From: Planctomycetota bacterium
GTDB lineage: Bacteria; Planctomycetota; J058
Assembly (NCBI GenBank): GCA_016765095.1
Contig: JAESQQ010000050.1
Location: forward strand, 1 to 51,960
Reading direction: 5' to 3'
Length of the DNA stretch: 51,960 nucleotides
Part shown: piece by piece, positions 22,077 to 42,181 of the stretch
How the letters are laid out: each line of letters starts with the position of its first letter
Position numbering within the stretch: the stretch's first letter is position 1
Position numbers and translations under genes: made by a program
The notes under the pieces: model-generated
Told to the model about the DNA's origin: nothing
The model's database searches: none
What the model saw: only the letters and a program-made list of their open reading frames with translations

Positions 22077-22077
22077 T

Positions 22078-26784: not shown

Positions 26785-26855
26785 GCCGCGCAATCGAGGA
26801 GGCTGAGGTGGGCGTGAGCCGTCCACAGGGGCTACCATCGTCGACTGGAGGGGCG

Positions 26856-27998
26856 ATGGCGAGGAAGACTACGACCGGAGATCCGAGGCTCGACGCCCTC
26901 GCAGGGGGAGGGCCTAAGCGGTCCCCGAATGTCCGCGCGCTGGCGCGGTTCGCTGCCAACTCAGACTGCCAGCTCGCGACGGTCGGCTTCGCGGCTCGCA
27001 TCGACTTCGACAAGCTGTTGGTGGGAACTGAGTTCGAGGTCCCGTTCGGACAGTCCCCGTTCGCCTTTCGCCGGGGCGATCGCTTCGAGGATCTCCTCCG
27101 CAAGAACGACTACGATCCGCTGCTAGGACTGTTCCGGGATCACCTCGGGTTCAAGGTGTCGGACGCGCGCGTCAAGAACCTCAGGGGGGGCGCGCGGAAC
27201 CGACGGGGAATGGAGAAGCGCGCCAAGCAGACGGAGGACGAGATCCGCGCCATTATCCAAGGCTCGAAGTCCGCCCCAAACCTGCTGGACGGGGCGGTTC
27301 TCACGCGCGAGATCGCTGGCGTTCGCTCCTACTTCGAAGCTGACGCCATCGCTGCCCAGTTCGACGGCCCGATTCGCGCAGGCGAGGTCAAGTCCTTCCC
27401 CACCGTCGACGGCCAGGCCGACCCCGATAAGGTGGGGGCCGCGGTCGCCCAGGTGTCGATATACATTCTGTTGCTGCGGGAGCTCGTCGCGCGGCTGGGC
27501 GGCGATCCGGAGCAGGCCGTTTCGGACGAGGCCCTGATCATCACGCCGAAGAACACCGGACTGCAACCAACCATGTGCGTACGCCCGGTTCGCGCGCACG
27601 TCGAGCGTGCTCGCCGAATCCTCGACTCGACACCCAGCGCCACGGAGATCGCAGACAGCCTACCGAGGAAGCTCCCGACTTTCGGCTCTATCGCGGACGT
27701 GTCTGCCAGGGAGTCCAAGCGGGTCGACGGTGCTCGCAAGCTAATCGAGGTCATTGGGAACAATTACAGGCCTTCTTGCCTGGCAGCCTGCGGGCTGTCC
27801 CGAATGTGCCGCCACCGTGCGCACGAGCGGGGTGATCCCCAGGTGGTGGGAGGCTCCCTGGAGCGACTGGTCCCGGGGATCAGCTCGCTGGATCGGGTAC
27901 ACAAGCTCGCGGCGGGAGGACGGCCGAAGAAGGAGGAGGCAGCCGTCGCCGAGCAGCTGAAGCGCGCTGCCACCCTCCGCGAGCGGTACGCCAAGTGA
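26856..27998 (+). CDS. Cas4/RecB-family PD-(D/E)xK nuclease with a putative 4-Cys (Fe-S) cluster
   Basis: GGAGGGG precedes ATG 26856. In track-ORF numbering: D179 (FEADAI), E193-V-K195 (GEVKSF), Q215-VSI-Y219 (RecB-family QxxxY), and Cys54 plus C324-x3-C328-x5-C334 (SCLAACGLSRMC), reminiscent of Cas4/AddB C..CxxCx5C. Confidence 0.75.
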   Translation: MARKTTTGDPRLDALAGGGPKRSPNVRALARFAANSDCQLATVGFAARIDFDKLLVGTEFEVPFGQSPFAFRRGDRFEDLLRKNDYDPLLGLFRDHLGFKVSDARVKNLRGGARNRRGMEKRAKQTEDEIRAIIQGSKSAPNLLDGAVLTREIAGVRSYFEADAIAAQFDGPIRAGEVKSFPTVDGQADPDKVGAAVAQVSIYILLLRELVARLGGDPEQAVSDEALIITPKNTGLQPTMCVRPVRAHVERARRILDSTPSATEIADSLPRKLPTFGSIADVSARESKRVDGARKLIEVIGNNYRPSCLAACGLSRMCRHRAHERGDPQVVGGSLERLVPGISSLDRVHKLAAGGRPKKEEAAVAEQLKRAATLRERYAK

Positions 27999-29443
27999 AC
28001 TACCTCGATGTGGTCCTGATCGCCGAGGCGCGAGCGAAGAAGCGGGCGATTCGCTCTGCCCTCAGGCGCCACATTCACCTCACCCGCGATCCCCTGGGCA
28101 TTGTCCTCTGGCAGCTTGGGGCAGAGCCCTTTACAGCAGCCGCCACGGCGTGGGGCTTCGGACCCAAGGAGCCACAGGTCTCCGTTCCGGGGGAGCCCAG
28201 GAACCGAACCCTCTCCTTTCGAGCACTGCTTCGGCTCGCGAAGGACTTCAACCCTTGGTTCGAGTCAGGCCAGCGCCCCGACGGGAAGACACGATCGGAC
28301 CTTCCCCAGATCGTAGTACCAAACCGTGGAACTCTGACCCTGCTCCGCCGCCTCGGACGGCGCCTGGCGTTTCTTCCCACGACCGGCGAGTGGGCCGCGG
28401 ATCCCGAGTTGGTGCGTATGGGCAAGCACCTTGCGTTTCTCTCGGAGCACGCCCGCACCCCGGGCCAGTCGCTGGTAGTGGTCCTCACGGATCTCCTGTC
28501 CACACACTGGGCGACTGAGCTCTCAAGTATGGAGGCGCAGAGCCTCCCTGCCTTGGAGGCCTGGATCGAGCCGCCGAAGGGCATGAGCGGCTACGACGCC
28601 GCGCGCGCAGCTGAGAGGCTCGAGATCGGCCCGGTCCCAGGCTTGTCTGAGGACGAGGTCATGGACGGGCTCCTGGACCGGTTCAACGAGGAACGAGATC
28701 GCGAGACCGACGAGTCGATTGTGGGTCCGCTCCGCAAGCCCATCGAGAAGCACTACCGAAAGCTCGTGCAGCGAGGTTGGCCGTTCATTTGGCGAGTGCT
28801 GAAGAGGGAACGAGGCCTGTCCGAGGCCGCCTCGGTGAGTCGCCGGTGGACCGAGGATAAGAGGGCCATCGACTGGCACCTCGAGTGGGTCGTGTTGAAG
28901 GGCGGGCACCTGAGCACGCGCTACACCCACAAGCGGGCGGCGATTACCCTGAGACGCTGGGAGGACGCCCAGTCGCAACTCGGGGCCGAACGCGCCCTCG
29001 ACGATCCGCTTCGCATGATCGCCTCCATGCTGAAGAACGAGGCCGTGGTCGGGGTCGTCGTGAACGTGGACGAGGAGAACAGGGAGCAAGGGCCGGTCAA
29101 GCTAGTTAGGCGGCCCGTTGTCACGCTCGAAACCGAGCGGCCCTGCACAATGCCCATTGGGAAGAAACTGTGGTGGTCGGGGCACCCGAAAGGCAAACAC
29201 TACGTCCTGCGCTCCGCTGTGGACACTCCCAGAGGCGGCTCACGGCTGGAGCTCTGCCTGCAGACGAGTCATCGCTCGGTCGTTCGCCCTGCAGAGGGTA
29301 AGGAGGCGATCTTCTCCAGCCACCACGTCAAGAGTCCCTTTTTCGCCCAATGGCCCGACGAACTCCCCTGGACCCATGTCGACTCAGCGACCGCAACGAC
29401 TCGGTCCGTGGAAGACGCCACCGAGGCGTGGGGGGGAGCGTGA
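27995..29443 (+). CDS. Orphan 482-aa protein, no recognisable domain
   Basis: GTG 27995 overlaps the nuclease stop (GTGA) and its own stop overlaps the helicase ATG (TGATG at 29441-29445). Uninterrupted, normal composition. I could not assign any motif. Confidence 0.7.
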   Translation: MNYLDVVLIAEARAKKRAIRSALRRHIHLTRDPLGIVLWQLGAEPFTAAATAWGFGPKEPQVSVPGEPRNRTLSFRALLRLAKDFNPWFESGQRPDGKTRSDLPQIVVPNRGTLTLLRRLGRRLAFLPTTGEWAADPELVRMGKHLAFLSEHARTPGQSLVVVLTDLLSTHWATELSSMEAQSLPALEAWIEPPKGMSGYDAARAAERLEIGPVPGLSEDEVMDGLLDRFNEERDRETDESIVGPLRKPIEKHYRKLVQRGWPFIWRVLKRERGLSEAASVSRRWTEDKRAIDWHLEWVVLKGGHLSTRYTHKRAAITLRRWEDAQSQLGAERALDDPLRMIASMLKNEAVVGVVVNVDEENREQGPVKLVRRPVVTLETERPCTMPIGKKLWWSGHPKGKHYVLRSAVDTPRGGSRLELCLQTSHRSVVRPAEGKEAIFSSHHVKSPFFAQWPDELPWTHVDSATATTRSVEDATEAWGGA

Positions 29444-30798
29444 TGAAGCTCTACAACGAAGCTGTGGTGAAGGCGGCAGATGCTGCCGTCCGCCGTGCGA
29501 TCAAGGGCGCGCTGTCTTCGCTGTCCACCAGGGGAGCTGTCGTGGGGATTGCCCCGGCAGGCGCTGGGAAGTCGTACGCGATTGGCACTGCAGTCCTCGC
29601 AGCGCGGGAAAAGGGACTCCGGGTCGTGGTGGCAACGCCCACGAACGAGCAGGCGTACGCGTTGGTGCACGACTTGGCGGTGCGTCTCGGAAAGCGCAAA
29701 GACAAGGTCACGTTCCTGCCGGCAGTCGGTCGGAGCCTCCCCGCAGTTCACCGTCACCCCAAGGTAGTGGAGAGCAAGGCTCGCGACGCTGGGGCTGCGA
29801 CGATCCGAGTAGGCACCCTCGACAAGCTGGGGGACGCATTCGCCCGGGGCGACCTGAGGGGGGCAGACCTGCTCCTGATCGACGAGGCCTACCAGGCCAA
29901 CGCGGTGCATTACTACAAGGTGGCGGGGATCGCGAAGCGCCACCTTCTCATGGGCGACAGCGGGCAGCTTGCGCCCTTCTCGACGGCACCCGAAGCCGAC
30001 CGGTGGCGTGGACTGGCCGAGGATCCCCTCCTTCGTGCCGTCGAGGTCCTGGACCGCAACCACCCGGGGACCCAGAAGGAGCGGCTCCCGATCACGCGTC
30101 GGCTTGACCCGCGGGCGGTCCCAGTCGTCAGCTCTTTCTATCCGGGGCACCCCTTTCAGGCCGCCGTCCTCCCCGGGGTGCGAGACCTCACATTCCGCGC
30201 GCGCCGGTCTCGCTCGTGGAAGGTGGAGGACAAGCTCCTCGAGCACGCCGCCCTCTCGGGGTGGGCGCACGCCGAGCTCCCGGAGAGCGCGGTCCTCGTG
30301 GACGATCCCGCGGTGGCCAACCTCCTCACTCGCCTAGCCAAGCGGCTGCTGGCCCGCGGGCCGGTGACGGTCTGCGAACGCAGCCGCAAGAAGCGTAAGC
30401 TGACACAGAGCGACATAGTGGTCGTCGTCAGCCACAACGACCAGAAGGACCGACTCAGGATCCTCCTCGACGAAATCGGCCTCCCCGACGTCGTCGTCAG
30501 CACGGCGAACAAGGTCCAGGGCCTCACCTTCGAGGTCGTCCTCGCCTGGCACCCGCTGGCGGGTCTGCAGGAGGCTGACGAGTTCCACTTGGATCCCGGA
30601 CGCATGTGCGTGATCCTGACGCGCCACCGCCACGCCTGCATTGTCGTAGGGCGCGAGGGAGACCGAAAGCTCGTGGAGGGCATTCCTCCTCCGACTCCGG
30701 CCTATCCGGGCTGGGACCTCGATCCCGCCCTTGATGGCTGGTACGCCCACGAGGGCGTATTCAACACGTTGAGTCCACACCGAATCGCGGTTTCATGA
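29443..30798 (+). CDS. SF1 helicase (Upf1/RecD-like, AAA_11/12/30-type)
   Basis: Walker A APAGAGKS, Ia ATPTNEQA, II LLLIDEAYQ, III LMGDSGQLAPF, V STANKVQGLTFEVVL, VI CVILTRHRHACIVVG. Start taken at ATG 29443, not the upstream track start 29350. Confidence 0.85.
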   Translation: MKLYNEAVVKAADAAVRRAIKGALSSLSTRGAVVGIAPAGAGKSYAIGTAVLAAREKGLRVVVATPTNEQAYALVHDLAVRLGKRKDKVTFLPAVGRSLPAVHRHPKVVESKARDAGAATIRVGTLDKLGDAFARGDLRGADLLLIDEAYQANAVHYYKVAGIAKRHLLMGDSGQLAPFSTAPEADRWRGLAEDPLLRAVEVLDRNHPGTQKERLPITRRLDPRAVPVVSSFYPGHPFQAAVLPGVRDLTFRARRSRSWKVEDKLLEHAALSGWAHAELPESAVLVDDPAVANLLTRLAKRLLARGPVTVCERSRKKRKLTQSDIVVVVSHNDQKDRLRILLDEIGLPDVVVSTANKVQGLTFEVVLAWHPLAGLQEADEFHLDPGRMCVILTRHRHACIVVGREGDRKLVEGIPPPTPAYPGWDLDPALDGWYAHEGVFNTLSPHRIAVS

Positions 30799-31137
30799 CC
30801 CCGCGAACAGTGCTGCTTGAGACAGCGGAGCAATCCGCAAGCCCACGCGGAAGAGAGCGCTGGCCCAACTCAAACCCCGACGAGGACTGGTCCGCGCAAA
30901 GCCCCGGGTCGGGCTCGCCCGAGACGATCGCGCCTCACGAATCTTGGCGTAGGCTACTGCCATGCGTTCGATGGCGTCACACTTGCTGGTAAGCCGACTT
31001 ATCATCCCGGCTCAGATCTCCCCTTGGAGAGGCATGGCTCAGGTACCGTTTTTCACCCACAGGCTGAACAATGACAGCCTCGCCTCGGCGCCACAGGAGG
31101 CGAACCGTGAGAACTCCGAATTGGGGTCCACGGGGTG

Positions 31138-33894
31138 ATGGCTGAACCTCCACTGCGCCTGTCCCCCGAACAGAAAAAGGTAGTCGACCACCGCGGCGGC
31201 CCGCTTCAGGTCATTGCCTGCGCAGGTTCGGGAAAGACTGAATCGCTCTCTCGCAGAGTAGCGGCCCTGATCACTGAAGGTACAGACCCGTCGTCGATCG
31301 TCGCCTTCACCTTCACTGAGCGAGCTGCCTCTGAACTGAAAGCGCGGATCGTTCGGCGAGTAGCAGAGAGCCTGGGCGAGCAGTTCCTCGACCGTCTCGG
31401 CCCGATGTTCGTAGGCACGATCCACGGGTATTGCTTTCGGCTGCTCCAGGACCATGTCCCTCGATTCGGAAATTACGACGTGCTCGACGAGCATAGACAC
31501 GCGGGTCTCCTTAGCAGGGAATACAAGCGCCTGGGACTCTCGGCACTGGGACCGAGGCATTGGAGTCCAATTCGCGAATTCACGCACAACGTGGACGTGA
31601 TTGGGAACGAACTGATCGATACAGCTGCCCTTGCAGGAACGCCACTCGGTGTCTGCTACGCGGCATATCGGTCCATGCTGGACCGATACCACTTCATCAC
31701 GTTCGGCCAGATCATCTCCCACGCCGTAGATGCCCTCGAAGATCCCTCGGTGTTTGCGCACGTGCACGCGCCTTTGCGGCACCTATTGGTCGACGAATAC
31801 CAGGACGTCAACCCGGCTCAAGAGCGCTTGATCGAATTGTTGGCACGAGACCCCGTGGAGCTTTGCGTGGTTGGCGATGACGACCAGGCGATTTACCAGT
31901 GGCGAGGCTCGGACCTCCGAAACATCCTGGAGTTCGCGAATCGTCGGGCGGGCACTACGACGGTGAATCTGGCCACCAACCGGCGAAGCCGGCCCGGCAT
32001 AGTGGCGAAGGCCAATTCGTTTGCGGCGACGATTCCTCACCGCTTGGCCAAGTCTATGCAGCATGCCCGAGAGGAGGCACCACACGAAATCGTGCCATGG
32101 TCCTCCGCGACCGAGGAAGAAGAGACGACCACTATCGCCGCCACTATTGCGCGGCTGCATAGTGCTGGGCATCGCTATGCCGACATCGCCGTCCTCTACC
32201 GCTCAGTGCGCACGTCAGCGCCTCCGCTCATCGAAGCGCTCCGCGAACGCAGGATTCCCTTTCAGTGTGGCGGAAGGACTGGTCTTTTCCTACAGAGTGA
32301 GATCGCTCTGTTCGGTGAGACCTTCGCCTGGCTCGTCGATGGTGACTGGAAGGACGAGAGATACGGGAAGCCTCGAAAGGCTGATCTTGGCCAACTGGTG
32401 GCGGGGTATCAGGCTGCCTTCGGAGACGTGCAATTCACCGTAGGGATCGAGCGCTACCTGGAGGACTGGAAGCGCTTTACGCTTCGTGGGAATCGCACAG
32501 TGAGTCTCGTGGGCGATTTCTATCGGTTGTTGGCCGCTCTTGGAGTCGATTCCGTGGACTCAGACACTGCCGAAGGGGCGGCGCGACTGGGCAGCTATGC
32601 CCGCTTCGCCCACGTCCTTGGCGACTTCGAAGCGGTCACACGCCGAGGGCGGTTTGTCGAGACGGACAGCGGCCGGGCATTCAAGGGCGGGCGGGATCGT
32701 GGGAAACACTACCTGCGAGGCCTAGCAAACTACCTTGTGCATTACGCGCGTGACGCCTACGAGGAGTTTGAGGGGGAGGAGGTGGCCTCCCTCGACGCAG
32801 TTAGTATTCTCACGGTCCATCAGGCCAAGGGCCTCGAGTGGTCCATTGTCTTCATACCGGCTCTGGTGGTCGGGCGCTTCCCCGCACGGGCTGCTGGGCG
32901 CACCCAAGACTGGCTTCTTCCCCAGGAGGTTTTCCCAGCTCACAAGCGTGTGCGATATGAGGGAGGAGACAGCGAAGAACGGCGCTTGTTTTACGTTGCC
33001 CTTACACGGGCTCGTGACCTTGTCTACCTCTCTTGCTTTGAGCGGAAGAAGAACAGATTCCAGCCTTCGCCGTACCTACTCGAGGTGGCGGGCTCGATAG
33101 TTCGGCTTGAGGCGGATCTTCCACTACCAGTCGCGACTTTGGCTGGAAGCGAAGAACCACCGCCGCTGGAGGTCTCTTTCTCGAATCTCGCCTTGTTCCA
33201 GGACTGTGGCTACCGCTACCGCCTGCGAGAGGTCTTCGGCTTCGCCTCGGAGATCGCCCTCGAACTCGGATACGGACGAGCGGTGCATCACGTTCTCCGG
33301 CAGCTCGCTGAAGTGGCACGAGAGCGGGGAGCAGTTCCCGAGCCAGAAGAAGTAGACGCGATCATCGAATCCGAGTTCTACCTGCCGTTCGCAAACGCTC
33401 CCGCCTTCGCCCGGATGCGCGCTGCAGCCGCTCGAGTCGTGCGGACCTATAGCACTGAATACGCTGAGGACCTCCAACGCGTCTTCGCGACCGAGCGTCC
33501 CTTTGAACTCCATGTTGCAGACGGGCTGGTGATTGGGCGTGCGGACGTGATCCTCGACAAGGAGGGCGGCGAGGTAGGGGACCTCGCGATCGTCGATTAC
33601 AAGACCACCAATGATGGGACTCACGACGAGCGCTATCGGATGCAGCTCGCAGTTTACGCAGCCGCGGGGAGAGGCGAGGGTCTGATCGTTAGAGCCGCCT
33701 ACCTTCATGAACTGCGCGGCGGCACTCGCAGCGATGTGGATGTCAGCGAGGAGACCACAGCGACGGCCATCCGATCAGCGTCCGAGGCGATCTCCTCCAT
33801 TCGAAGAGGAGAGTTCCGCGCTCGCCCTGACTCCCAGAAATGCAAGGTCTGCGATCTTGCTCAGATCTGCTCCCACAGGGCTGGACCGGCCTGA
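31138..33894 (+). CDS. UvrD/Rep-type SF1A helicase fused to a C-terminal Cas4/AddB-like Fe-S PD-(D/E)xK nuclease
   Basis: LSPEQKKVV..ACAGSGKT, LLVDEYQDVNPAQ, VGDDDQAIYQWRG, NRRS, TVHQAKGLEW, YVALTRAR. Then the nuclease: FQDCGYRY, GRADVIL, LAIVDYKT, QLAVY, and the terminal CKVCDLAQIC (CxxCx5C). Confidence 0.9.
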   Translation: MAEPPLRLSPEQKKVVDHRGGPLQVIACAGSGKTESLSRRVAALITEGTDPSSIVAFTFTERAASELKARIVRRVAESLGEQFLDRLGPMFVGTIHGYCFRLLQDHVPRFGNYDVLDEHRHAGLLSREYKRLGLSALGPRHWSPIREFTHNVDVIGNELIDTAALAGTPLGVCYAAYRSMLDRYHFITFGQIISHAVDALEDPSVFAHVHAPLRHLLVDEYQDVNPAQERLIELLARDPVELCVVGDDDQAIYQWRGSDLRNILEFANRRAGTTTVNLATNRRSRPGIVAKANSFAATIPHRLAKSMQHAREEAPHEIVPWSSATEEEETTTIAATIARLHSAGHRYADIAVLYRSVRTSAPPLIEALRERRIPFQCGGRTGLFLQSEIALFGETFAWLVDGDWKDERYGKPRKADLGQLVAGYQAAFGDVQFTVGIERYLEDWKRFTLRGNRTVSLVGDFYRLLAALGVDSVDSDTAEGAARLGSYARFAHVLGDFEAVTRRGRFVETDSGRAFKGGRDRGKHYLRGLANYLVHYARDAYEEFEGEEVASLDAVSILTVHQAKGLEWSIVFIPALVVGRFPARAAGRTQDWLLPQEVFPAHKRVRYEGGDSEERRLFYVALTRARDLVYLSCFERKKNRFQPSPYLLEVAGSIVRLEADLPLPVATLAGSEEPPPLEVSFSNLALFQDCGYRYRLREVFGFASEIALELGYGRAVHHVLRQLAEVARERGAVPEPEEVDAIIESEFYLPFANAPAFARMRAAAARVVRTYSTEYAEDLQRVFATERPFELHVADGLVIGRADVILDKEGGEVGDLAIVDYKTTNDGTHDERYRMQLAVYAAAGRGEGLIVRAAYLHELRGGTRSDVDVSEETTATAIRSASEAISSIRRGEFRARPDSQKCKVCDLAQICSHRAGPA

Positions 33895-33908
33895 ATAGGA
33901 AAGACAAT

Positions 33909-36900
33909 ATGGCCCGAAAAAAACGAAAGAAGACGGTTTCCTCCCCGGTTGAAACGGCCGACTACCGCCACCTTGAGAAGAAGCGCAAGAACATCCCGCC
34001 GGCGGCGATCGCTGCCGAAGGGCACGTTCCCGAGGTCCCAAAGGCGGAATACCTGTATTGTCCACACCTTCCTCCGGTCTTGCGTCACGACCCCGACGGC
34101 GGTGCCGACGCGCTCCCCGACCTCATCGCTGAGGCTGGACGTCGTGTCTTGTCACCGACAGAACAGCGCACGCTAGCGGATGCTCTCAGCAGCCAAGAGC
34201 CTTGGCTCGAATGGTCGGAGAAGCGGGAACAGCAACGACGCCGGCTGTTCGAGGTCGACCCTGTCGCACTACATATTCACGAACGCGTCAGCACACGAGC
34301 GGTCCTTCGTGCTGCATACCGAGAGGACGTGCAGCGCGAGCTGTTCGCGGATCCGCAGCTGCCATACCAGCAAGAGGTGAAGTTTTATCAGCACGATATT
34401 GACTGGACGAATCGACTTATCTTGGGCGACAGCCTTCAGGTGATGTCGTCCTTGGCTCGCCGAGAGAACCTCGCGGGCAAGGTCCAAATGATCTACCTCG
34501 ATCCTCCATACGGAATCAAATACAAGAGCAACTTCCAGCCTTTGGTAGGGCGAGTTGATGTCAAGGACAAGGACAGCGACCTCACGCGGCAACCCGAGAT
34601 GGTCAAAGCCTTCCGAGACACCTGGGAACTTGGGGTCCACTCCTATCTGTCGTACCTCCGCGACCGTCTAATCGTTGCAAAGGAGCTCTTGGCGGATACA
34701 GGAAGCCTCTTCGTGCAGATGGGCCTCGATAATGTGCATCGCGTGCGCGCCCTGCTCGACGAGGTGTTTGGCCCGCAGAATTTTGTCTCCCAAATCGCCT
34801 TCGTGAAGACGACGAGTTCAACGAGCAAGCAGCTGTCTTCGGTCTACGACCAGATCCTCTGGTACCGGAAGACCGATCAAATGAAGTATCGGCCGATCTT
34901 CCTGGAGAAGAGGCCAGGGGAGACGGGTGCGACGGGGTACAAGACAGTGCTCCTGCGCAGCGGGGAGACGCTCCCAAGCAGCAGGTTCATCGTCGACGGC
35001 GCCCTCCAGTTGCCTGAGGGTGCTGACCTGATCTTCGCCGACAACTACACGTCCCAAAGCCCTGGATCCCGATACGATGTGCTTCTTGACGGGCGCACGT
35101 ACCGTCCGGAGCCCGGTTACTGGAAGACCGACGAAGGTGGAATGGCCCGCATTCTCAAGGCGGGCCGACTGGGCGGCAGCGCGAAGCGAAAGTACCCAGG
35201 GTATCTCCGACGAATCTCAGATTTTTCTGCCTATCCGTTAGGAAACGTATGGACAGACACCCTCGGGCAAAACCAGTTCGGCGGCAAGAAGTGCTATGCG
35301 ACACAGACTGCCTTGAAGGTCATCCAGCGCTGCATGCACATGACAACCGACCCTGGCGACCTGGTACTTGACCCTACATGCGGCAGCGGCACGACCGCTC
35401 TCCTCGCCGAATAGTGGGGGCGGCGTTGGATCACGATCGACACGGGCCGGGTCGCTCTGACGACTGCACGGCAGCGACTCCTGACGGCACGGTATCACTA
35501 TTACCGCCTACGGCGCGTCAGTGCTCAGGACCTGAAGCGCAACCCGCAGGGAGCCTGGTTGCGGGATACTCGCTCGGAGATTTCGGGACCTTGTACGATC
35601 GCTTGCAAGACCGTCCCTCACATCCAGCCGGCAAGCGGGGTCGCCCAAAATGCGAATCTAGATCCGATCTTCGACAAGCACGAATCGTTGCTGGAGGAGG
35701 CCCTTGCTCTTTGCAATACCGCTCTCAGCAAGGTATCTGCTGCGACTCGGAAGCAACTCAGCGAGAAGCTAGCTTCGAAGCAGCAGGAGGAGGGAAAGGG
35801 ATCAGTCACCGAGGGTGACCGGCGGCGCTGGAGCCTCCCTGCGACGGGGAAGAGCTTCGAACACTGGACGGTCCCCTTTGAGGCGGACAACGCCTGGCCA
35901 GCTGCCTTGCGACGGGCTGTTGTCGCCTACCGCACCACCTGGCGCAAGAAGCAGGATGAGATCGACGCTTGTATTGCAGCAAACGGAGACCAGGAAGATC
36001 TGCTTGACGAACCAGAAATTGTGAAAGGCGTCCTCCGGGTCACCGGACCGTTCACGGTTGAGGGCGTACGGCCAGCCGAACTCTCGCTCGGCTCCGAGAC
36101 CTCACTCGAGGTGGAAGGGACCAGCAGCGCAGGCAAGAACTTGCACGCCTATCTAACGCGAATGGTGCACTTGTTGCGAGACGATGGACTCACGTTTCTT
36201 GACAACAAGGTGCGCCGTTTTCACCGCCTAGAGGCGGTTTTTGAAGCTTCCACTGGATCCGCCATTCATGCCGAAGGCAGTTTCGATGAGAGCGATCCCG
36301 AAGGATCCAATGCCGTTGCGGTCGGCTTCGGGCCTCAATACGGACCAGTGACTGCGGAGCAGGTCGAGGGACTCATTCGCGCGAGCAAGCGTTACGACGA
36401 GCTAGTCATTGCCGGTTTTAGTTTCGACGCAGAGGCATCTGCGGCTTTGCAAGACGTGACTCACCCGGCCTTGCGCGTCCACCAAGCCTACATTCGGCCC
36501 GATGAGAATGCGGCGATGGACGGGCTGCTCAAGCCCGACCGAGGGAGCCAGCTTTTCTCGGTGTTCGGCCAGCCCGAGGTGATCCTCACCCAGGCTGGAG
36601 ACGGATGTTGGACCTGCGACCTGGCAGGAGTCGACATCTATGACCCAGTCAACAACATCGTGAGATCGACTGGGGCAGAGAAGGTGGCGGCATGGTTCCT
36701 TGACACTGACTACGATGGGCGGTGCTTCTGTATCTCGCAGGCGTTTTTCCCCGACAAGACTGCCTGGGAGAAGATCGCCAAGGCGCTAGGCTTGGACACC
36801 GACGCTGAGCCGTTTAGTTCCTACAGCTCCACCACGTCGCTTCCGTTCCGAGGTGGCGAGAGCAGGAAGATCGCAGTCAAAGTGATCGACCCTCGAGGCA

Positions 36901-36935
36901 ATGAGGTAATGACCGTGCGAAAGCTCGAGGACTAG
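33909..36935 (+). pseudogene. ~1008-codon beta-class N6/N4 DNA methyltransferase (type III Mod-like) interrupted by one in-frame TAG
   Basis: AGGAAAG precedes ATG 33909, 14 nt after the UvrD stop. Motif IV IYLDPPYG, motif I [9 protein letters not shown]. ..ALLAE-TAG(35412-35414)[15 protein letters not shown] continues in the same frame into track ORF 35559-36935. Homologues usually read AEQWGRRWI. Confidence 0.8.
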
Positions 36936-36938
36936 CCA

Positions 36939-37304
36939 GTGGCCAAGAAGGCGAAGCGCCGGAAGGCATCTAGTCCAAACAGCAAGGGCGAGCGACTCCC
37001 TACCCAAGCAGTCGCGAATCCCGTCGTCAATAGCCCATATGAACAGCCGAAGAGACACTGGGTCTATCAGGTAGGTGAGGGGGAGCCCTACTTGATGGAC
37101 GGGCGGCGTTCCGCCAGCTATTTCTACAAGACGAAGAAGACCGGCACGACCCAGGATGGGCTGTTTCGGGACGAGCAGAGTGACGAGCTTCCGCTCGTCA
37201 ATCGGCTGAGGCACGACGTCGAGCGCTGGCGCGGGTCCAACTACCGAGGAGCCACGCCAGCAACACGTGACCTCCTTATCTATTGGGTGCCCATCTCTTA
37301 CTGA
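36939..37304 (+). pseudogene. N-terminal ~115 codons of a type III Res-like (DEAD/DEAH helicase) restriction subunit, truncated by ISKra4
   Basis: NPVVNSPYEQPKRHWVY...DGRRSASYF...LVNRLRHDVERWRGSNYRGATPATRDLLIYW matches the N-terminus of Res-type partners of long Mod methylases. The IS inverted repeat begins at 37285 and no helicase motifs follow. Confidence 0.65.
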
Positions 37305-37484
37305 CGGAGTCTGCAAGGGTTTACGACGCGCCAGGGCACCGTCCGGAGCAAATTGGTCATGAGGCAATGAGGCAACGCTGAGGGGCCTGTTCATGGACGA
37401 CGTAACGCTGGGGGCGAGACGTCAAGGAAGTGGCCATTGCTAAGGTTGAGAAGGCCAACCAACGAACACAGCCGGAGGGCACCA

Positions 37485-37630
37485 ATGGAATCGGACCCCA
37501 CGACCGACCTGACGCAATTGGGGAGCTTCGCTGAACTCCGAGATTTCCTCGACCGACGGCGAGAGGAGCCGGGCTCGTTCGAGGACTTCGAACTCGAACT
37601 CGGGAAACGGATGCGTGCCATTGAGAAGGG
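37485..37630 (+). pseudogene. Duplicated N-terminal fragment of the ISKra4 transposase
   Basis: MESDPTTDLTQLGSFAELRDFLDRRREEPGSFEDFELELGKRMRAIEK parallels MGSHTTTDLTEFESHAELRDFLDRRREEPGSFEDFERGLAKRFRTLEN of the full gene. 63 bp are identical (37529-37591 = 37743-37805). Confidence 0.75.
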
Positions 37631-37698
37631 CAAGGGAGTGGCCTCTGCTAGTGTTCGGAAAGGGTCGGTAGCCAACCGACACCAACTGGAGGCCAGCG

Positions 37699-39162
37699 AT
37701 GGGATCGCACACCACGACCGACCTGACGGAGTTTGAGAGCCACGCTGAACTCCGAGATTTCCTCGACCGACGGCGAGAGGAGCCGGGCTCGTTCGAGGAC
37801 TTCGAGCGGGGGCTCGCGAAGCGATTTCGGACCCTAGAGAACGACCTCAAGGCGCAGCAGCTAGCGCTCTACGACATTGACGCTCAGGTCATTCAGGTGG
37901 GAGGGCAAGAGCTTCGGCGGTGCCTGAAGAAGGAGCCGAAGACCTACCTGAGTTCGTCTGGGCCGGTGACGGTGGCACGAAACCTGTTCCGGCCGTCGAG
38001 TGGAGGCAAGAGCGTCTGCCCGCTTGATCTGCGCGCGGGACTTGTTGGAGGCTTGTGCACGCCAGTCCTCGCACGGCAGGTGAGCTACACAATGGGGCAC
38101 ATGACCTCCGCAGGGACGGCGGCCTTGTTCGCCGAGTTCGGGGTCGAGGGGCCGTCGAGTAGCACCTGTGATCGGATTCCGAAAATCGTCGGGGAAGTGT
38201 GGGAGCGCAGCCGGGAGCGGTGGGAAACAGCGCTTCGAGAGCAGGAAGAGATCCCCGCTGAGGCCAAGGTCATGGCCGTGTCGCTGGACGGCGTCATGGT
38301 GCCCGACAAGGAAGCGCAGCGGGAGGCCAAGGCCAAGCGGGAGGAGAAGAAGAAGAGCCTCAGCAAGCCCTCGGGTGGGCCCGCCGGCTACCGGGAGGTG
38401 GGCTGCGGAACAGTGTCGCTGTTCGACGAGGAAGGCAGGCGCCTAGAGACCGTGCGCTACGGTCGAGCACCGGAGCACAAGAAGAAGACGCTGACAGAGC
38501 AACTCGACGCCGAGGTGGCCTCGATCCTCGCCGTGAGAAGCGACCTCGATTTGGTCGCGCTGGCTGACGGCGCCGAGGAGAACTGGCGCTACTTCGCTGG
38601 CCCCACGTGGGAGCATGCGACCAAGATCGTGGACCACGGTCACGCCTGCCAGCACCTCAAGGCTGGGCTCACCGCGTATTTCGGCGCGGCAGAGGTAAAA
38701 GGCAGAGCAGAGTACGAGCGGCTCAAGATCATTCTCAAGGACCAACCTGGTGGTGTGGACGAGGTGATCGCCGAGTTGCGTAAGCGCGAGCGCAAGCTTC
38801 GCAAGAAGAAGCGGAAGAAGCGGAAGAAGCGTAGCGAGCAACTACGGAAGGAGCGCCAGTATTTCGAGAACCAGCGCGAGCGAATGGACTACGCGCGCTA
38901 CCAAGAACTCGGCCTTCCCATTGGAAGCGGGGTCGTCGAGGCGGCTTGCAAGACCCTCGCGACTCAGCGCCTAAAGCGCTCTGGCATGAGTTGGAGCGCC
39001 GGCAAGCAACCGATACTGACAATCCGAAGCCTGCAGCAGAGTAGCCGCTGGGGCAGAGCATGGCCGCTCATTGCGGCAGAATTCCGGAAGCGCCCGCTAG
39101 TCGTGGTTGTTCAAGACGGCCTGAAGACCTTCCGCCAGCCAGGCTACGCCGTGGCCGCATAG
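37699..39162 (+). CDS. ISKra4 family transposase
   Basis: VMAVSLDGVMVP, GYREVGCGTVSLFD, ALADGAEENW, HACQHL and the signature C-terminus PIGSGVVEAACKTLATQRLKRSGMSWS are typical of ISKra4-group transposases. Confidence 0.85.
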   Translation: MGSHTTTDLTEFESHAELRDFLDRRREEPGSFEDFERGLAKRFRTLENDLKAQQLALYDIDAQVIQVGGQELRRCLKKEPKTYLSSSGPVTVARNLFRPSSGGKSVCPLDLRAGLVGGLCTPVLARQVSYTMGHMTSAGTAALFAEFGVEGPSSSTCDRIPKIVGEVWERSRERWETALREQEEIPAEAKVMAVSLDGVMVPDKEAQREAKAKREEKKKSLSKPSGGPAGYREVGCGTVSLFDEEGRRLETVRYGRAPEHKKKTLTEQLDAEVASILAVRSDLDLVALADGAEENWRYFAGPTWEHATKIVDHGHACQHLKAGLTAYFGAAEVKGRAEYERLKIILKDQPGGVDEVIAELRKRERKLRKKKRKKRKKRSEQLRKERQYFENQRERMDYARYQELGLPIGSGVVEAACKTLATQRLKRSGMSWSAGKQPILTIRSLQQSSRWGRAWPLIAAEFRKRPLVVVVQDGLKTFRQPGYAVAA

Positions 39163-39301: not shown

Positions 39302-42181
39302 TCACTTGAGGAGTTCGGAGATCCGCTGGAGGAGTGTATCCAGCTCGGCCTCCTCCGCGCGGTGGAAGGCGAGCGACGCCTTGAGGTGCCGCCCGCGCCG
39401 CACCTCCTCCCGAAGGTGCACGCCGAACTCATGGTTGGTGAGCCGCTCGAGTGCAAGCTCGCCAGGGACCTTGGTTGCCGCTTCGAGCTTGCTCTTGATC
39501 TGTGCGATCTTGAGCTTGAGCTGGCCTTGTTTTGCCATTTCGCCAGCCTTCTTGGCGGCGCCCTTGAGCATCCCGAACAGCCCGCCGCCGCCGCCACCCT
39601 CGCTCCCCTTGCCCGCCTCTTCCAGCTCCGCCTCGGCGGCCGCGAGCTCCGCGCGCAAGGACTCAATCGGCTCGAAGGGGTCGTCAAGGCCGGCCTCGAT
39701 CGCGCCAGTCTGGATCTCCTGACGCGCGTCGTTGAGCTCGTCCGCGTTCTTGCTGATGCGTTCCTTGAGCTCGACGATTTCCTCCTCGTTCTCCGAGCAG
39801 CACTTTCTGACGGACTTGCGCCGGCCCTCCATGCGGGCCTTGAGAAGTCGCGTCGCAGTGCAGGGGTAGGCGCCCGCTTGCGGGCGGACGGCAGCGTTCC
39901 TAGAGCCCAGGTAGCGCTGGATTCGGCCCTTCTCTTGGTCGAGGAGCGTCTGTTCGCGGACTGCGTTGGGGGGAAACTTGCCGACGCTTCCGAGCATGGC
40001 GCGGGCCGCATCGAAGTACTGCAAGCCCGTCAGGGCGCGTGCGATCGAGAGCCGGAGCTGCTTGGTCTCGAGCGGCGTGACCTCCTGACTGAGTCGCGCA
40101 TGGCAGAGGCCGATCGCCATCTTCAGCGAGCCAGCGAAGAGGTTGGTCTTCTCGTCGGTCCCCTGAACCGTATGGGCCATGAGGGTTGGGTTGTTGGAGA
40201 GGAGCGCGCCGCGGCCGTAGTCGACCAGGAGCTCCACGCAGGCCACGTCCATTCCATGGCCTAGGCGCAGGTCGGGGTTCTTGCTCGAAGGGTAGAGGGC
40301 CCAGGCGAGCTGGACCAAGCGCAGGTGCGCCGTGCCGTCCTTGGAGAGCTGGTGCGCGAGCACCGCCATGATCAGGTGGTGGTAGGGCTCCTTGGGGTGC
40401 TCACGCGCAATGTATGCGTGCACGGCGGTGGCTGCCTTGGCCCTGTCCTCGCTCACGAGGCCGCTCATGCGGTTGAGCGAAACCCGGTACAGGACGCCTT
40501 GTCCGTAGCGTTCGGCGTCGGCGATCACCTCCAGCGCCGGCCGGCAGCTGGGGTCGTCCTGGAACGCGTAGCGCGAAAGCTTTTCGGCGCGTTCGACCTC
40601 GCCCTGGAGCAAGAACACTCGACCTTGCCCCGCCTTGCCCGTCGCGGAGAGCGCAGGCACGCTGCTCGCTTCGACCTGGCGGTAGAGGCGAAGTGCTTCC
40701 TCGAGGTACTTCTGGTTGCCGGACTGCTCGTAGCGCCACACCGCCTGGCCAGGCTCGTCCAGAGAGGGAGGCGCCTCCTCGGCCTCGACCGCCTCGAGGC
40801 CGGCGAAAGAGGCGCGGACCTGGATCGAGCCGGCCTGGTTCCCTTGCTGCGCCTGGGAGTGCGCCTCCTTTGGACCCAGCGGGGGCTTGGCGTTGAGGAC
40901 GCGCCGGAGGTCGAGCGCGGCCGCCTTCGCGCTGGGGTAGCGGTCGTCCCGCTCGCGAGCGCAGAGCCCACGCATGACCTGGGCCGTGCCGGCCCCCACC
41001 TTGGGGTTGATCGTGCGCGGGTCGGGCACGTCGTTGGTCATTTGGAGGGTGAGGATCCCGATCACCGAGTCGGACTCGTAGGGGAAGCGCCCCGTGACGA
41101 GCCGGAAGATCGTGATCCCCAGCGAGAAAAGGTCCGCGCGGACGTCGCACTCCTCGACGCCCAGGGCCTGCTCGGGTGACATGAACTGCGGCGTCCCAAT
41201 GATCATGCCCTCGGGGTCCTGGCTCTCGTCTTCCCGCTCGCGCCGCGCCTTGGCCAGGCCGAGGTCTGCGAGCTTGGGGATCCCGTCGCGCCCGATCAGA
41301 ATGTTCTCGGGCTTCACGTCGCGGTGGACCATGCCGTGTGACTCGGCGCACACCAGGGCGTCGGCCACCGCCAACGCCAGCGCCAGGGCCTCGCCCTGAG
41401 GCATGACCCCTCCCGGACGCTGCGCCAGGAGTTCCTTGGCCGTCACGCCGTCGACGAACTCGAAGGCCACGTACTGGATCCCCGTGCGCGGGCACTTGCC
41501 CTGGTCGATCACCCCGACCACGTTCTGGTGCGCGAGCTTCGCCCCGGCCTTGGCCTCCGCCTGGAGCCGATCAACGAAGGTCGGGTCCTCCATGGCGAGC
41601 GAGGGGTTGAGCACCTTCAGGGCGACCAGGCGGTCGAGGCTGGCCTGGCGCGCCTTGAACACGCGGCCCATGGCGCCTTCGCCGATCTGCTCCAGGATCT
41701 CGTAGCCGGCGATCGTAGAGCCAGGCCCGAGCGACTCGACCGCAGCGGCGTCTGAGTCTCCAGGGAGGCCAGGGGGGAGCTCCTGCAGGACGCCCGAGGC
41801 CGAAAGGTCGAGAGACTCGTGCGAGCCGGCGAGAGCCTGCGCTTGCGCCTGATGGCGAGCGCTCGAAGCCTGAGCGTAGAGCGTGGCCAACACGCGAATC
41901 ACTCCCACGTACTTCGAGTCGTCGGCCATGCCGCGGCGGAGGTGACATAGGAAGGTTGTGCCCCCCTTGCGCGACTGGCTGACCTGAGCAGCGCTGTCCA
42001 CCAGGGCTTCGTGGATCGGAGCGGGCACTTGGATACCCCGGGCGAGAAGGCCGTCGACGCCCGCCTTCCAAACCGAAGCGGTGTAGAGCCCCATGCTCTC
42101 GACTCGGCCGGCCCCCTCAGGCCCGCTGAGGCTAGGGAAGGACTTTCCAAGCTGTGTTAGGAGGTCTGCCTCGGCGCTCAC
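39302..42181 (-). CDS. Ser/Thr protein kinase with long TPR-like and coiled-coil C-terminal regions
   Basis: IAGYEILEQIGEGAMGRVFKA..VALKVL, HRDVKPENILI, ADLGLAK, GTPQFMSPEQ. 959 aa. The helical repeat region and the Gly-run plus coiled coil at the C-terminus were judged by eye. Confidence 0.92.
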   Translation of the reverse strand: MSAEADLLTQLGKSFPSLSGPEGAGRVESMGLYTASVWKAGVDGLLARGIQVPAPIHEALVDSAAQVSQSRKGGTTFLCHLRRGMADDSKYVGVIRVLATLYAQASSARHQAQAQALAGSHESLDLSASGVLQELPPGLPGDSDAAAVESLGPGSTIAGYEILEQIGEGAMGRVFKARQASLDRLVALKVLNPSLAMEDPTFVDRLQAEAKAGAKLAHQNVVGVIDQGKCPRTGIQYVAFEFVDGVTAKELLAQRPGGVMPQGEALALALAVADALVCAESHGMVHRDVKPENILIGRDGIPKLADLGLAKARREREDESQDPEGMIIGTPQFMSPEQALGVEECDVRADLFSLGITIFRLVTGRFPYESDSVIGILTLQMTNDVPDPRTINPKVGAGTAQVMRGLCARERDDRYPSAKAAALDLRRVLNAKPPLGPKEAHSQAQQGNQAGSIQVRASFAGLEAVEAEEAPPSLDEPGQAVWRYEQSGNQKYLEEALRLYRQVEASSVPALSATGKAGQGRVFLLQGEVERAEKLSRYAFQDDPSCRPALEVIADAERYGQGVLYRVSLNRMSGLVSEDRAKAATAVHAYIAREHPKEPYHHLIMAVLAHQLSKDGTAHLRLVQLAWALYPSSKNPDLRLGHGMDVACVELLVDYGRGALLSNNPTLMAHTVQGTDEKTNLFAGSLKMAIGLCHARLSQEVTPLETKQLRLSIARALTGLQYFDAARAMLGSVGKFPPNAVREQTLLDQEKGRIQRYLGSRNAAVRPQAGAYPCTATRLLKARMEGRRKSVRKCCSENEEEIVELKERISKNADELNDARQEIQTGAIEAGLDDPFEPIESLRAELAAAEAELEEAGKGSEGGGGGGLFGMLKGAAKKAGEMAKQGQLKLKIAQIKSKLEAATKVPGELALERLTNHEFGVHLREEVRRGRHLKASLAFHRAEEAELDTLLQRISELLK

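What the first reader, a model, noticed from the sequence alone, without database searches (positions are those of the whole stretch)
31138..37304. UvrD helicase/Fe-S nuclease fusion as first gene of an operon with a long Mod-like methyltransferase and a Res-like helicase
The 919-aa UvrD protein carries its own Cas4/AddB-like nuclease (GRADVIL, IVDYKT, QLAVY, CKVCDLAQIC). It ends 14 nt before the RBS and ATG of a ~1000-aa DPPY methyltransferase, which is followed 3 nt later by a Res-type gene. Classical type III systems are two-component (Mod + Res). A helicase-nuclease in first position suggests a three-component, R-M-like or BREX/DISARM-like modification-dependent system that I cannot place in a named class.
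Basis: partly seen in the sequence, partly recalled or inferred. Interest (0 to 1): 0.7.

Follow-up and report, generated by a model that had tools for sequence, protein, structure and literature searches.

The report
Decayed helicase-nuclease plus type III restriction cassette
This is a broken copy of a widespread three-gene bacterial defence cassette (a DNA-unwinding-and-cutting enzyme, a DNA methylase and a restriction enzyme); the gene linkage was noted by computer analysis in 2017 but has never been tested in the laboratory.

Summary
The sequence features are real, but the local copy is a wreck. The UvrD helicase fused to a 4-Cys RecB/Cas4-type nuclease (31135-33894) is intact. The ~1000-aa DPPY methyltransferase that starts 14 nt later has one in-frame TAG (35412-35414) in place of a conserved Gln. 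The Res gene that starts 3 nt after it is a 116-codon stub, cut off by ISKra4 sequence.

In relatives the linkage is strongly conserved. All 14 other loci carrying the window's type of Res have UvrD-nuclease, long Mod and Res in this order; these Res proteins are ~1200 aa, NCBIfam "BPTD_3080 family". The three proteins co-vary (Mantel r = 0.88 for helicase-nuclease against Res). No plain-UvrD control locus (0 of 36) carries this restriction-modification pair.

It is type III-like restriction-modification plus an AddA/RecB-like accessory, not BREX or DISARM. Hudaiberdiev et al. 2017 (PMC5704561) already described the association in silico. In most other Res clades the Mod-Res pair lacks the helicase-nuclease (77 of 80 loci).

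I found one thing not reported in the papers I searched. Res proteins of this clade end in a LexA/lambda-repressor-like self-cleaving S24 domain, and I only ever saw that domain next to the helicase-nuclease. Its function is untested.

The parts
30976..31005 (+). Sigma-70-like promoter match upstream of the helicase-nuclease gene (GTCACA, 18 nt, TATCAT)
   Evidence: It is a consensus match only: 1 site found against 1.2 expected in shuffles, so it is weak evidence.
31135..33894 (+). Intact UvrD-type SF1A helicase fused to a C-terminal RecB/Cas4-type PD-(D/E)XK nuclease with a 4-Cys iron-sulfur 'staple' (919 aa). Walker A is at 31219-31239 and DEYQD at 31789-31812. The nuclease domain spans about 33172-33870.
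   Evidence: Pfam hits. Catalytic residues are invariant in 26 homologues. The AlphaFold model has pLDDT 79.8 and pTM 0.85. Its best PDB matches are AddA (4cej_A, E 8.8e-26), UvrD, AdnA/B and RecB.
33909..36935 (+). Long (1008-codon) beta-class N6/N4 DNA methyltransferase, type III Mod-like, now a pseudogene. DPPY is at 34500-34511 and motif I (DPTCGSGTT) at 35370-35396.
   Evidence: PADLOC MTase_III PDLC03632 matches both halves (1e-121 and 1.2e-36). Pfam N6_N4_Mtase matches. It is 51-57% identical over about 1000 aa to the intact Mods of 10 relatives. The nearest solved structures are type III Mods 6k0w and EcoP15I 4zcf_A.
35412..35414 (+). Premature TAG inside Mod, just after motif I; a CAG-to-TAG change is inferred
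   Evidence: The aligned residue is Gln in 8 of 10 relatives, His in one and Arg in one. The remaining 506 codons have no further stop, so the lesion is recent or is a sequencing error.
36939..37304 (+). Stub of the Res gene. Codons 1-116 (to about 37286) are homologous to the N-terminus of ~1200-aa BPTD_3080-type Res proteins. The last 5 codons and the stop are junction sequence.
   Evidence: The stub is 53-60% identical to the N-termini of S24-bearing Res proteins and 38-53% identical to Res proteins without S24. No further Res homology exists in the window.
37469..37627 (+). 5' fragment of a second ISKra4-like element, 82% identical to 37683-37841
37699..39162 (+). ISKra4-family transposase gene (487 aa). 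This IS sequence replaces the missing ~3.3 kb of Res.
   Evidence: NCBIfam NF033572 gives E 1.3e-46 but 159.5 bits, below the 205-bit cutoff, so this is family-level similarity only. The next gene is a Ser/Thr kinase on the minus strand at 39302-42181.

Best explanation
The region is a decayed copy of a horizontally mobile three-gene cassette, transcribed as one operon. The genes are (1) an AddA/RecB-like helicase-nuclease (the 'UvrD-Cas4' fusion), (2) a long type III-like Mod methyltransferase and (3) a BPTD_3080-family Res.

Shown for intact relatives: Res is an SF2 ATPase with a PD-ExK nuclease, and in this clade it also carries a C-terminal LexA-like S24 domain.

Inferred mechanism for intact relatives:
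- Mod marks host DNA, probably at N6-adenine on one strand of an asymmetric site.
- The Mod-Res complex finds unmethylated sites on incoming DNA, and the Res nuclease makes the double-strand break.
- The helicase-nuclease then loads on the break and unwinds and degrades the invader DNA. RecBCD or AddAB normally do this job after restriction, so this would make restriction irreversible and independent of host end-processing enzymes that phages often inhibit.

In this window an IS-associated deletion has removed all but 116 codons of Res. Mod has since picked up a nonsense codon. Only the helicase-nuclease ORF is still intact. The locus therefore cannot restrict and very probably does not methylate.
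For: Anatomy and lesions in the window.

Operon structure: gaps are 14 nt and 3 nt here, and 3-66 nt in most relatives. No terminator lies between the genes.

Linkage:
- 14 of 14 other loci with this Res clade have the three genes in this order. L166 and L172 are flanked only by unrelated genes, so the three genes form a self-contained unit.
- 26 contig-length coincidences link the top-120 hit lists of the helicase-nuclease and of Res.
- 0 of 36 plain-UvrD control loci carry the pair.

Co-evolution within the clade: r = 0.88 for helicase-nuclease against Res and 0.83 against Mod, with 0 of 2000 permutations reaching the first value.

The Res nuclease looks active in relatives: PD and ExK are kept in 119 of 119.

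The helicase-nuclease has AddA/RecB/AdnB architecture with intact catalytic residues.

Foreign origin: GC is 0.59-0.61 for the three genes against 0.655-0.66 for the flanks.

Prior in-silico description of the same neighbourhood: PMC5704561.
Against: - No experiment exists for any member. My literature searches found none, and a 2025 restriction-modification review does not mention UvrD or Cas4.
- The end-processing role is inferred only from architecture.
- The Mod-Res pair works without the helicase-nuclease in most clades (77 of 80 loci), so the accessory is not mechanistically required for this enzyme family.
- The helicase-nuclease also occurs alone or with other partners: an OLD/GajA-like ATPase in L032, DUF6079 plus a methyltransferase in L042, PolA in L026.
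- The TAG could be an assembly error. In that case Mod might survive as an orphan methyltransferase.
Confidence: 0.6

Rival explanations
1. RecA-gated restriction. In this clade the helicase-nuclease resects Res-made breaks into single-stranded DNA. RecA filaments form on it and trigger LexA-like self-cleavage of the S24 domain at the C-terminus of Res. This switches restriction off (built-in restriction alleviation when the host chromosome is being cut) or on. The helicase-nuclease would then be a signal generator as much as a degrader.
For: - The Res proteins of this clade carry Pfam Peptidase_S24 (32.9 bits against a 23.3 cutoff in L003).
- The Ala-Gly cleavage site, the catalytic Ser and the catalytic Lys are all kept in 91 of 119. 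Most of those that lose Ser or Lys also lack the Ala-Gly site.
- The best PDB match of the Res model is the lambda repressor fragment that contains the cleavage site (2ho0, E 2.1e-4, TM 0.57), followed by LexA.
- Every S24-bearing Res seen has the helicase-nuclease next to it. That includes L004, where S24 is fused to a different Res family carrying PF19778.
- The sister clade without S24 (L083-L101) never has it.
Against: - Purely inferential. S24 domains can also serve as dimerisation modules.
- The helicase-nuclease also partners Res proteins without S24: the actinobacterial group L010-L012, L028, L030, L037 and also L022. S24 therefore cannot explain the association in general.
- The window's own Res lacks this part, so nothing can be tested here.
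Confidence: 0.25
2. Host-protective repair partner. The helicase-nuclease does not attack invaders. It repairs or processes breaks that the restriction enzyme makes in the host chromosome, acting as an AddAB-like resection enzyme for RecA repair, and so lowers the cost of carrying the system.
For: It shares the AddA/RecB/AdnB architecture of repair resection enzymes. Hudaiberdiev et al. suggested a role analogous to RecB/AddB in promoting recombination. The gene stays intact here after the restriction-modification genes died.
Against: - Most members of the same restriction-modification family do without it.
- No Chi-recognition partner subunit is encoded.
- The gene travels in defence islands with other defence modules.
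- Its intactness here may simply reflect too little time for decay.
Confidence: 0.15
3. A larger system. The real unit includes the three genes just upstream (26808-30798: 396 aa, 482 aa and an SF1B helicase), giving a six-gene system.
For: Homologous trios sit next to the three-gene core in 7 loci from two diverged trio subfamilies: the window, L003, L163, L164, L165, L167 and L170. In L163 and L165 the trio starts 9-10 nt after Res.
Against: - The trio's position and orientation vary: upstream on the same strand, divergent, or downstream.
- It is absent from L001, L002, L166, L168, L169 and L172.
- It stands alone in Chondromyces crocatus (L171).
- Its GC here (0.66) matches the host, unlike the core (0.60).
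Confidence: 0.07
4. Chance neighbours. The helicase-nuclease and the restriction-modification pair are independent defence genes that merely share a defence island.
For: The window is a defence island containing other systems and three IS elements. The helicase-nuclease has several other genomic contexts.
Against: - Order and orientation are fixed in 14 of 14 loci of this clade across several phyla.
- Gaps of 3-15 nt are typical.
- The sequences co-vary as tightly as Mod and Res do.
- L166 and L172 carry only these three genes between housekeeping genes.
Confidence: 0.03

Closest known systems
UvrD-Cas4 fusion with type III Mod/Res neighbourhood (Hudaiberdiev, Shmakov, Wolf, Terns, Makarova, Koonin 2017, BMC Evol Biol 17:232; PMC5704561)
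   Same: Same protein architecture (UvrD SF1 helicase plus PF12705 Cas4-like nuclease) and same neighbourhood (Mod and Res). The paper calls this the most common context of the fusion and predicts an ancillary defence role.
   Different: The paper gives no name, no experiment and no subdivision of the Res partners. It does not mention the S24 domain (0 occurrences of LexA, S24 or peptidase). The copy in this window is non-functional.
Classical type III restriction-modification (EcoP15I, EcoP1I)
   Same: Mod is a beta-class DPPY methyltransferase whose nearest solved relatives are type III Mods. Res in relatives is an SF2 ATPase with a C-terminal PD-ExK nuclease, and mod and res lie next to each other. 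The EcoP15I Res fold is weakly matched (4zcf_C, E 0.011, prob 0.85).
   Different: Mod is about 1000 aa against about 645. Its C-terminal ~450 aa has no recognised family, and relative to type III Mod structures it also has an N-terminal extension of roughly 70 aa. Res belongs to a separate NCBIfam family (BPTD_3080), and sequence search does not detect EcoP15I Res. This clade has a third gene and an S24 domain, which classical systems lack.
AddAB / AdnAB / RecBCD double-strand-break resection helicase-nucleases
   Same: An SF1A UvrD-like motor is followed by a RecB-type nuclease. The 4-Cys iron-staple pattern (Cys, then CX2CX5C) is the one I know from AddB and Cas4. AddA is the best structural match.
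   Different: It is a single polypeptide of 919 aa with no partner subunit gene. No Chi-recognition element can be identified. It is encoded inside a restriction-modification operon rather than as a housekeeping repair gene.
Gabija (GajA + GajB)
   Same: The helicase part matches GajB profiles (1e-55). One relative (L032) sits beside an OLD/GajA-like ATPase-TOPRIM gene.
   Different: No GajA gene is present here. GajB lacks the nuclease domain. The partner genes here are Mod and Res.
LexA / lambda CI / UmuD self-cleaving S24 domains (relevant to the Res of relatives only)
   Same: The Ala-Gly site, the GxSMxP serine and the lysine are kept in 91 of 119. The fold matches 2ho0 and LexA.
   Different: The domain is fused to the C-terminus of a restriction endonuclease rather than to a DNA-binding repressor domain. 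Cleavage has not been shown.

Membership tests
UvrD-Cas4 helicase-nuclease fusion (PMC5704561) | N-terminal UvrD/PcrA-type SF1 helicase with intact ATPase motifs | tested here: met
   Pfam UvrD-helicase 1.8e-56 and UvrD_C 3.2e-34. Walker A and DEYQD are invariant. The fold matches UvrD/PcrA.
UvrD-Cas4 helicase-nuclease fusion (PMC5704561) | C-terminal PF12705/Cas4-like PD-(D/E)XK nuclease with four cysteines | tested here: met
   PDDEXK_1 6.2e-27 and Cas_Cas4 5.7e-05. D, DxK, QxxxY and 4 Cys are invariant in 26 sequences.
UvrD-Cas4 helicase-nuclease fusion (PMC5704561) | Neighbourhood containing type III Mod and Res | tested here: met
   Mod and the Res stub lie directly downstream. Intact relatives have the same order.
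Type III restriction-modification system | Mod: beta-class amino-methyltransferase (motif IV DPPY before motif I, target-recognition region between them) | tested here: met
   DPPY is at aa 198 and FxGxG-type motif I at aa 488. The best PADLOC hit is MTase_III. The nearest PDB entries are type III Mods. The gene is inactivated by a TAG.
Type III restriction-modification system | Res: SF2 helicase-like ATPase plus PD-(D/E)XK endonuclease | tested here: not met
   In the window only 116 N-terminal codons remain and none of these motifs is present. Intact relatives do have them: KMATGSGKT, NDEGHH, QVVGRGLRR, PD and ExK.
Type III restriction-modification system | Two components suffice (Mod + Res) | tested here: inconclusive
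   77 of 80 loci of the wider Res family have no helicase-nuclease. In the window's clade it is always present (14 of 14). Sufficiency needs an experiment.
Type III restriction-modification system | Hemimethylation of an asymmetric site; cleavage needs two inversely oriented unmethylated sites and ATP | not testable with these tools
   Needs methylome sequencing and biochemistry on an intact orthologue.
NCBIfam NF046055 'BPTD_3080 family restriction endonuclease' | Whole-protein score above the curated cutoff (800 bits) | tested here: inconclusive
   The Res of relative L001 scores 879 bits. The window stub was scanned only against Pfam and PADLOC, with no hit. It is 47% identical to the N-terminus of L001 Res and 53-60% identical to others of the clade.
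BREX | PglZ phosphatase, BrxC/PglY ATPase and PglX methyltransferase | tested here: not met
   No BREX profile appears among the listed PADLOC hits for the five genes of the region or for six upstream genes; for two proteins only the best 25 hits are shown. The Mod is PF01555, with best hit MTase_III.
DISARM | DrmA helicase, DrmB (DUF1998), DrmC or DrmD plus a methyltransferase | tested here: not met
   No Drm profile or DUF1998 appears among the listed Pfam and PADLOC hits of the region and its neighbours.
Gabija | GajA (OLD-family ATPase-TOPRIM) next to a GajB UvrD-like helicase | tested here: not met
   GajB-like similarity exists, but no GajA-type gene lies among the neighbours scanned.
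MANTIS / Gao_RL (bioRxiv 10.64898/2026.09.23.753747) | DUF499 AAA+ ATPase, DUF3870 protein, methyltransferase, PLD-SF2 nuclease | tested here: not met
   None of these domains was found. The nucleases here are PD-(D/E)XK, not PLD (for the definition).
AddAB / AdnAB / RecBCD | Multi-subunit enzyme with a second helicase/nuclease-like subunit | tested here: not met
   The fold matches AddA/AdnB/RecB, but no partner subunit gene is adjacent here or in relatives.

The most novel reading that the evidence does not exclude
The clade to which this relic belonged is a distinct, obligately three-component, DNA-damage-gated restriction system. Res carries a LexA-like self-cleaving domain. The co-transferred AddA-like helicase-nuclease turns Res-made breaks into the single-stranded-DNA/RecA signal that cleaves it. 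This would give type III-like restriction a built-in feedback switch: self-protection, or activation. The link between the S24 domain and the helicase-nuclease was not reported in any paper I could find.
Probability: 0.25. Interest if true: 0.75.

Novelty: new member of a known kind. Interest (0 to 1): 0.42.

Why it matters
The local locus is a fossil. It shows the usual order of decay of a restriction system: the restriction gene goes first, and the methylase follows once it is no longer needed.

The family is worth more. It is a widespread, horizontally mobile variant of restriction-modification found in many phyla at 55-66% identity. It recruits its own RecBCD-like enzyme, and in one clade it fuses a LexA-type switch to the restriction subunit. 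No member has been tested.

If the accessory finishes off cut DNA, that would explain how restriction stays effective against phages that block host RecBCD. If the S24 domain responds to RecA, it would be a new way of coupling restriction to the SOS signal.

Tried and rejected
- **Rest of Res:** I looked for it elsewhere in the window by tblastn with full-length relatives. Nothing lies beyond 37289.
- **Frameshift in Mod:** I checked whether the two Mod ORFs are a frameshift. They are in the same frame, separated by a single TAG.
- **BREX, DISARM, Gabija and MANTIS/Gao_RL:** all rejected on missing defining components.
- **Literature:** a search for 'BPTD_3080' found nothing and 'UvrD-Cas4' found only the 2017 paper. 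Three further searches found no experimental work and none on S24-Res fusions.
- **Solved structures for Res:** a profile search against PDB did not detect EcoP15I Res. Only the fold search gave a weak match, and the full-length Res model is mediocre (pLDDT 66.6, pTM 0.44). I rely only on its better-modelled nuclease and S24 parts (block pLDDT roughly 70-88).
- **Upstream trio:** Pfam, PADLOC, NCBIfam and PHROG searches gave no family for the first two proteins.
- **Small ORFs between the helicase-nuclease and Mod:** the ~235-aa ORFs in L001 and L164 are not homologous to each other, so they are not a conserved fourth gene.
- **Source organism:** not established. Named relatives of a neighbouring gene are Myxococcota and one planctomycete.


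Full report
**1. What is in the window**

The + strand of 31135-37304 holds three consecutive reading frames.

*Gene 1 (31135-33894, 919 codons) is intact.*
- It matches Pfam UvrD-helicase (1.8e-56), UvrD_C, PDDEXK_1 (6.2e-27) and Cas4.
- In an alignment with 25 homologues, several features are invariant. These are the Walker A and DEYQD motifs, the nuclease Asp, DxK and QxxxY residues, and four cysteines (one N-terminal Cys plus CX2CX5C).
- An AlphaFold model (pLDDT 79.8, pTM 0.85) best matches AddA (4cej_A, E 8.8e-26). UvrD, PcrA, AdnA/B and RecB follow.
- Gene 1 is therefore a single-chain AddA/RecB-like helicase-nuclease.

*Gene 2 starts 14 nt after the stop of gene 1.*
- The spacer is ATAGGAAAGACAAT and contains an AGGA.
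- The frame runs for 1008 codons to 36935.
- It has DPPY at aa 198 and motif I at aa 488, which is the beta-class order.
- Both halves match one 983-position PADLOC type III methyltransferase profile (1e-121 and 1.2e-36).
- The nearest solved structures are type III Mods: 6k0w and EcoP15I 4zcf_A.
- The frame contains one in-frame TAG at 35412-35414.
- In ten intact relatives the aligned residue is Gln (8), His (1) or Arg (1), within the conserved AEQWGRRWIT.
- The other 1007 codons are open and 51-57% identical to relatives. The lesion is therefore a recent nonsense mutation or an assembly error.

*Gene 3 starts 3 nt after Mod (GTG at 36939).*
- Only codons 1-116 are homologous to anything. 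They match the N-termini of ~1200-aa Res proteins at 53-60% identity.
- Homology stops at about 37286.
- Next come a 159-nt 5' fragment of an ISKra4-like element (37469-37627, 82% identical to 37683-37841) and an ISKra4-family transposase gene (37699-39162).
- A Ser/Thr kinase gene on the other strand follows.
- No other piece of Res is in the window.

*Other local features.* No terminator-like site separates the genes on the + strand. A weak promoter-like match lies at 30976-31005.

**2. Is the linkage real?**

*Starting from the helicase-nuclease.*
- Its homologues are 59-66% identical and come from many phyla.
- I fetched 80 genome loci with relatives and searched them with the window's and relatives' proteins.
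- Of 46 loci with the nuclease-bearing fusion, 16 carry the same long-Mod/Res pair within 10 kb.
- Four more carry a shorter, classical type III pair (L004, L023, L024, L035).
- None of 36 loci with plain UvrD carries either.

*The window's own Res clade.*
- NCBIfam names the Res partner 'BPTD_3080 family restriction endonuclease' (879 bits, cutoff 800).
- The Res stub belongs to the clade of ~1200-aa versions.
- Eight members of that clade were looked up independently. Seven were reached through Res and one through the helicase-nuclease.
- All eight show helicase-nuclease, then Mod, then Res (L163-L169, L172).
- L001, L002, L003, L006 and L170 show the same order.
- L166 and L172 carry just these three genes between unrelated genes.

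*Co-variation.*
- Within the clade, pairwise identities of helicase-nuclease and Res correlate at r = 0.88. No permutation out of 2000 reached that value. Mod against Res gives 0.82.
- Across all clades the helicase-nuclease tracks Res less well (0.65) than Mod does (0.97). The accessory has therefore been re-assorted between restriction-modification lineages.

*Starting from Res.*
- 80 metagenome loci were found with a Res profile. Nearly all that have enough flanking sequence contain Mod, but only 3 contain the helicase-nuclease.
- The Mod-Res pair is therefore a self-sufficient two-gene system in most lineages. The helicase-nuclease is an add-on that has become fixed in some.

*Other contexts of the helicase-nuclease.* It also occurs with an OLD/GajA-like ATPase (L032), with DUF6079 plus a methyltransferase (L042), with a second UvrD (L007), and alone.

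**3. What it most likely does**

*Shown for relatives.*
- Res has SF2 motifs and an invariant PD...ExK nuclease motif in 119 of 119 sequences.
- The helicase-nuclease has all catalytic residues.

*Inferred.*
- Mod and Res act as a type III-like restriction-modification enzyme.
- The AddA-like enzyme processes the resulting DNA ends.
- The simplest version is degradation of the cut invader. This makes restriction independent of host RecBCD/AddAB.

*Here.* Res is gone and Mod is interrupted, so the cassette is dead. The surviving helicase-nuclease ORF may still be active or may simply not have decayed yet.

*Origin.* The three genes have GC 0.59-0.61 against 0.655-0.66 in the flanks. They lie in a 16.5-39.2 kb island bounded by IS elements.

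**4. A feature of the family not reported in the papers I searched**

- Res proteins of this clade end in a Pfam Peptidase_S24 domain.
- The LexA-type Ala-Gly site, the GxSMxP serine and the lysine are all kept in 91 of 119. Most sequences that lack Ser or Lys also lack the Ala-Gly site.
- The best PDB match of the Res model is the lambda repressor fragment containing the cleavage site (2ho0, E 2.1e-4, TM 0.57). LexA is next.
- L004 has a different Res family (PF19778 nuclease) that carries the same domain, and it too sits next to the helicase-nuclease.
- The sister clade without S24 never has the helicase-nuclease.
- This suggests a RecA-responsive switch fed by the helicase-nuclease. It is inference only.
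- The helicase-nuclease also partners Res proteins without S24, so S24 cannot explain the association in general.

**5. Comparison with what is known**

- Hudaiberdiev et al. 2017 (PMC5704561) described the UvrD-Cas4 fusion as monophyletic. They stated that its commonest neighbourhood is type III Mod plus Res, and they predicted an ancillary defence role.
- That paper does not mention S24 or LexA.
- I found no experimental study.
- A 2025 review of restriction-modification biology does not mention UvrD or Cas4.
- BREX, DISARM, Gabija and MANTIS were considered and rejected on missing defining parts.

**6. Verdict**

The helicase-nuclease and the gene spacing are as described. Mod is a pseudogene and Res is a stub.
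The three-gene unit is real and conserved. It is a type III-like system with an accessory, it was already noted in silico, and it is not BREX/DISARM-like.
- The local instance is a decayed new member of a known, though uncharacterised, kind.
- Interest is moderate. It rests on the family rather than on this locus.

Noticed in passing
window 26808-30798 (+): Three genes directly upstream: 396 aa, 482 aa, and an SF1B Upf1/IGHMBP2-like helicase (482-codon ORF that overlaps the previous one by 94 nt). The first two match no Pfam, PADLOC, NCBIfam or PHROG family. Homologous trios from two diverged subfamilies sit beside the helicase-nuclease/Mod/Res core in 7 loci in varying orientation. One stands alone in Chondromyces crocatus (L171). 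This looks like an uncharacterised candidate defence module.
   Followed up: partly
L003:8575-12186, L002, L021, L163-L169, L172; also L004:10712-14190: The Res proteins of the window's clade end in a LexA/lambda-CI-like S24 self-cleavage domain, with Ala-Gly, Ser and Lys kept in 91 of 119. In L004 the same domain is fused to a different Res family (frameshifted in that assembly). Every S24-bearing Res seen lies next to a UvrD-nuclease gene.
   Followed up: partly
window 18036-23793 (+): A 1346-aa protein with a NOV_C domain matches the PADLOC TmtA profile (2.8e-52). It is followed by a NERD-UvrD helicase (PADLOC RTasNERD-Hel, 1.9e-50). Similar NERD-helicase and/or NOV_C/SACS proteins also flank the restriction-modification core in L022, L163, L164 and L001.
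   Followed up: partly
window 16509-17948, 23996-25387, 37469-39162: Three IS elements lie in or at the edges of the island: an IS66-family transposase, a DDE_Tnp_1_4 (IS4-like) transposase, and an ISKra4-family transposase with a partial 5' duplicate. The island (16.5-39.2 kb) has lower GC (0.62) than the flanks (0.655-0.66).
   Followed up: partly
L002:6975-9892, L168:2716-6959, L169:1-3929: A HerA-like DUF87 ATPase plus a 380-470-aa protein sits next to the helicase-nuclease in three relatives. The smaller protein is weakly NurA-like in L002. A small methyltransferase accompanies the pair in L168 and L169. In L168 this module is inserted between the helicase-nuclease and Mod.
   Followed up: no
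L032:8017-12787: A UvrD-nuclease relative lies directly downstream of an OLD-family ATPase-TOPRIM (GajA-like) gene. This is a Gabija-like pair whose helicase carries its own nuclease.
   Followed up: no
L002, L039, L045, L170, L004: The cassette is often found damaged. Mod is fragmented in L002. Both Mod and Res are fragmented in L039 and L045. Res is frameshifted in L170 and L004. Either decay is common or these assemblies are error-prone.
   Followed up: no
window 33909-36935 and relatives: The C-terminal ~450 aa of the long Mod has no recognised family in Pfam or NCBIfam. Relative to solved type III Mod structures, Mod also has an N-terminal extension of roughly 70 aa. Their roles are unknown; partner binding is one guess.
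   Followed up: no
window 25754-26476 (-): A 240-codon ORF on the minus strand between the IS4-like element and the trio has no Pfam or PADLOC match and no hit in the first 82 related loci.
   Followed up: no
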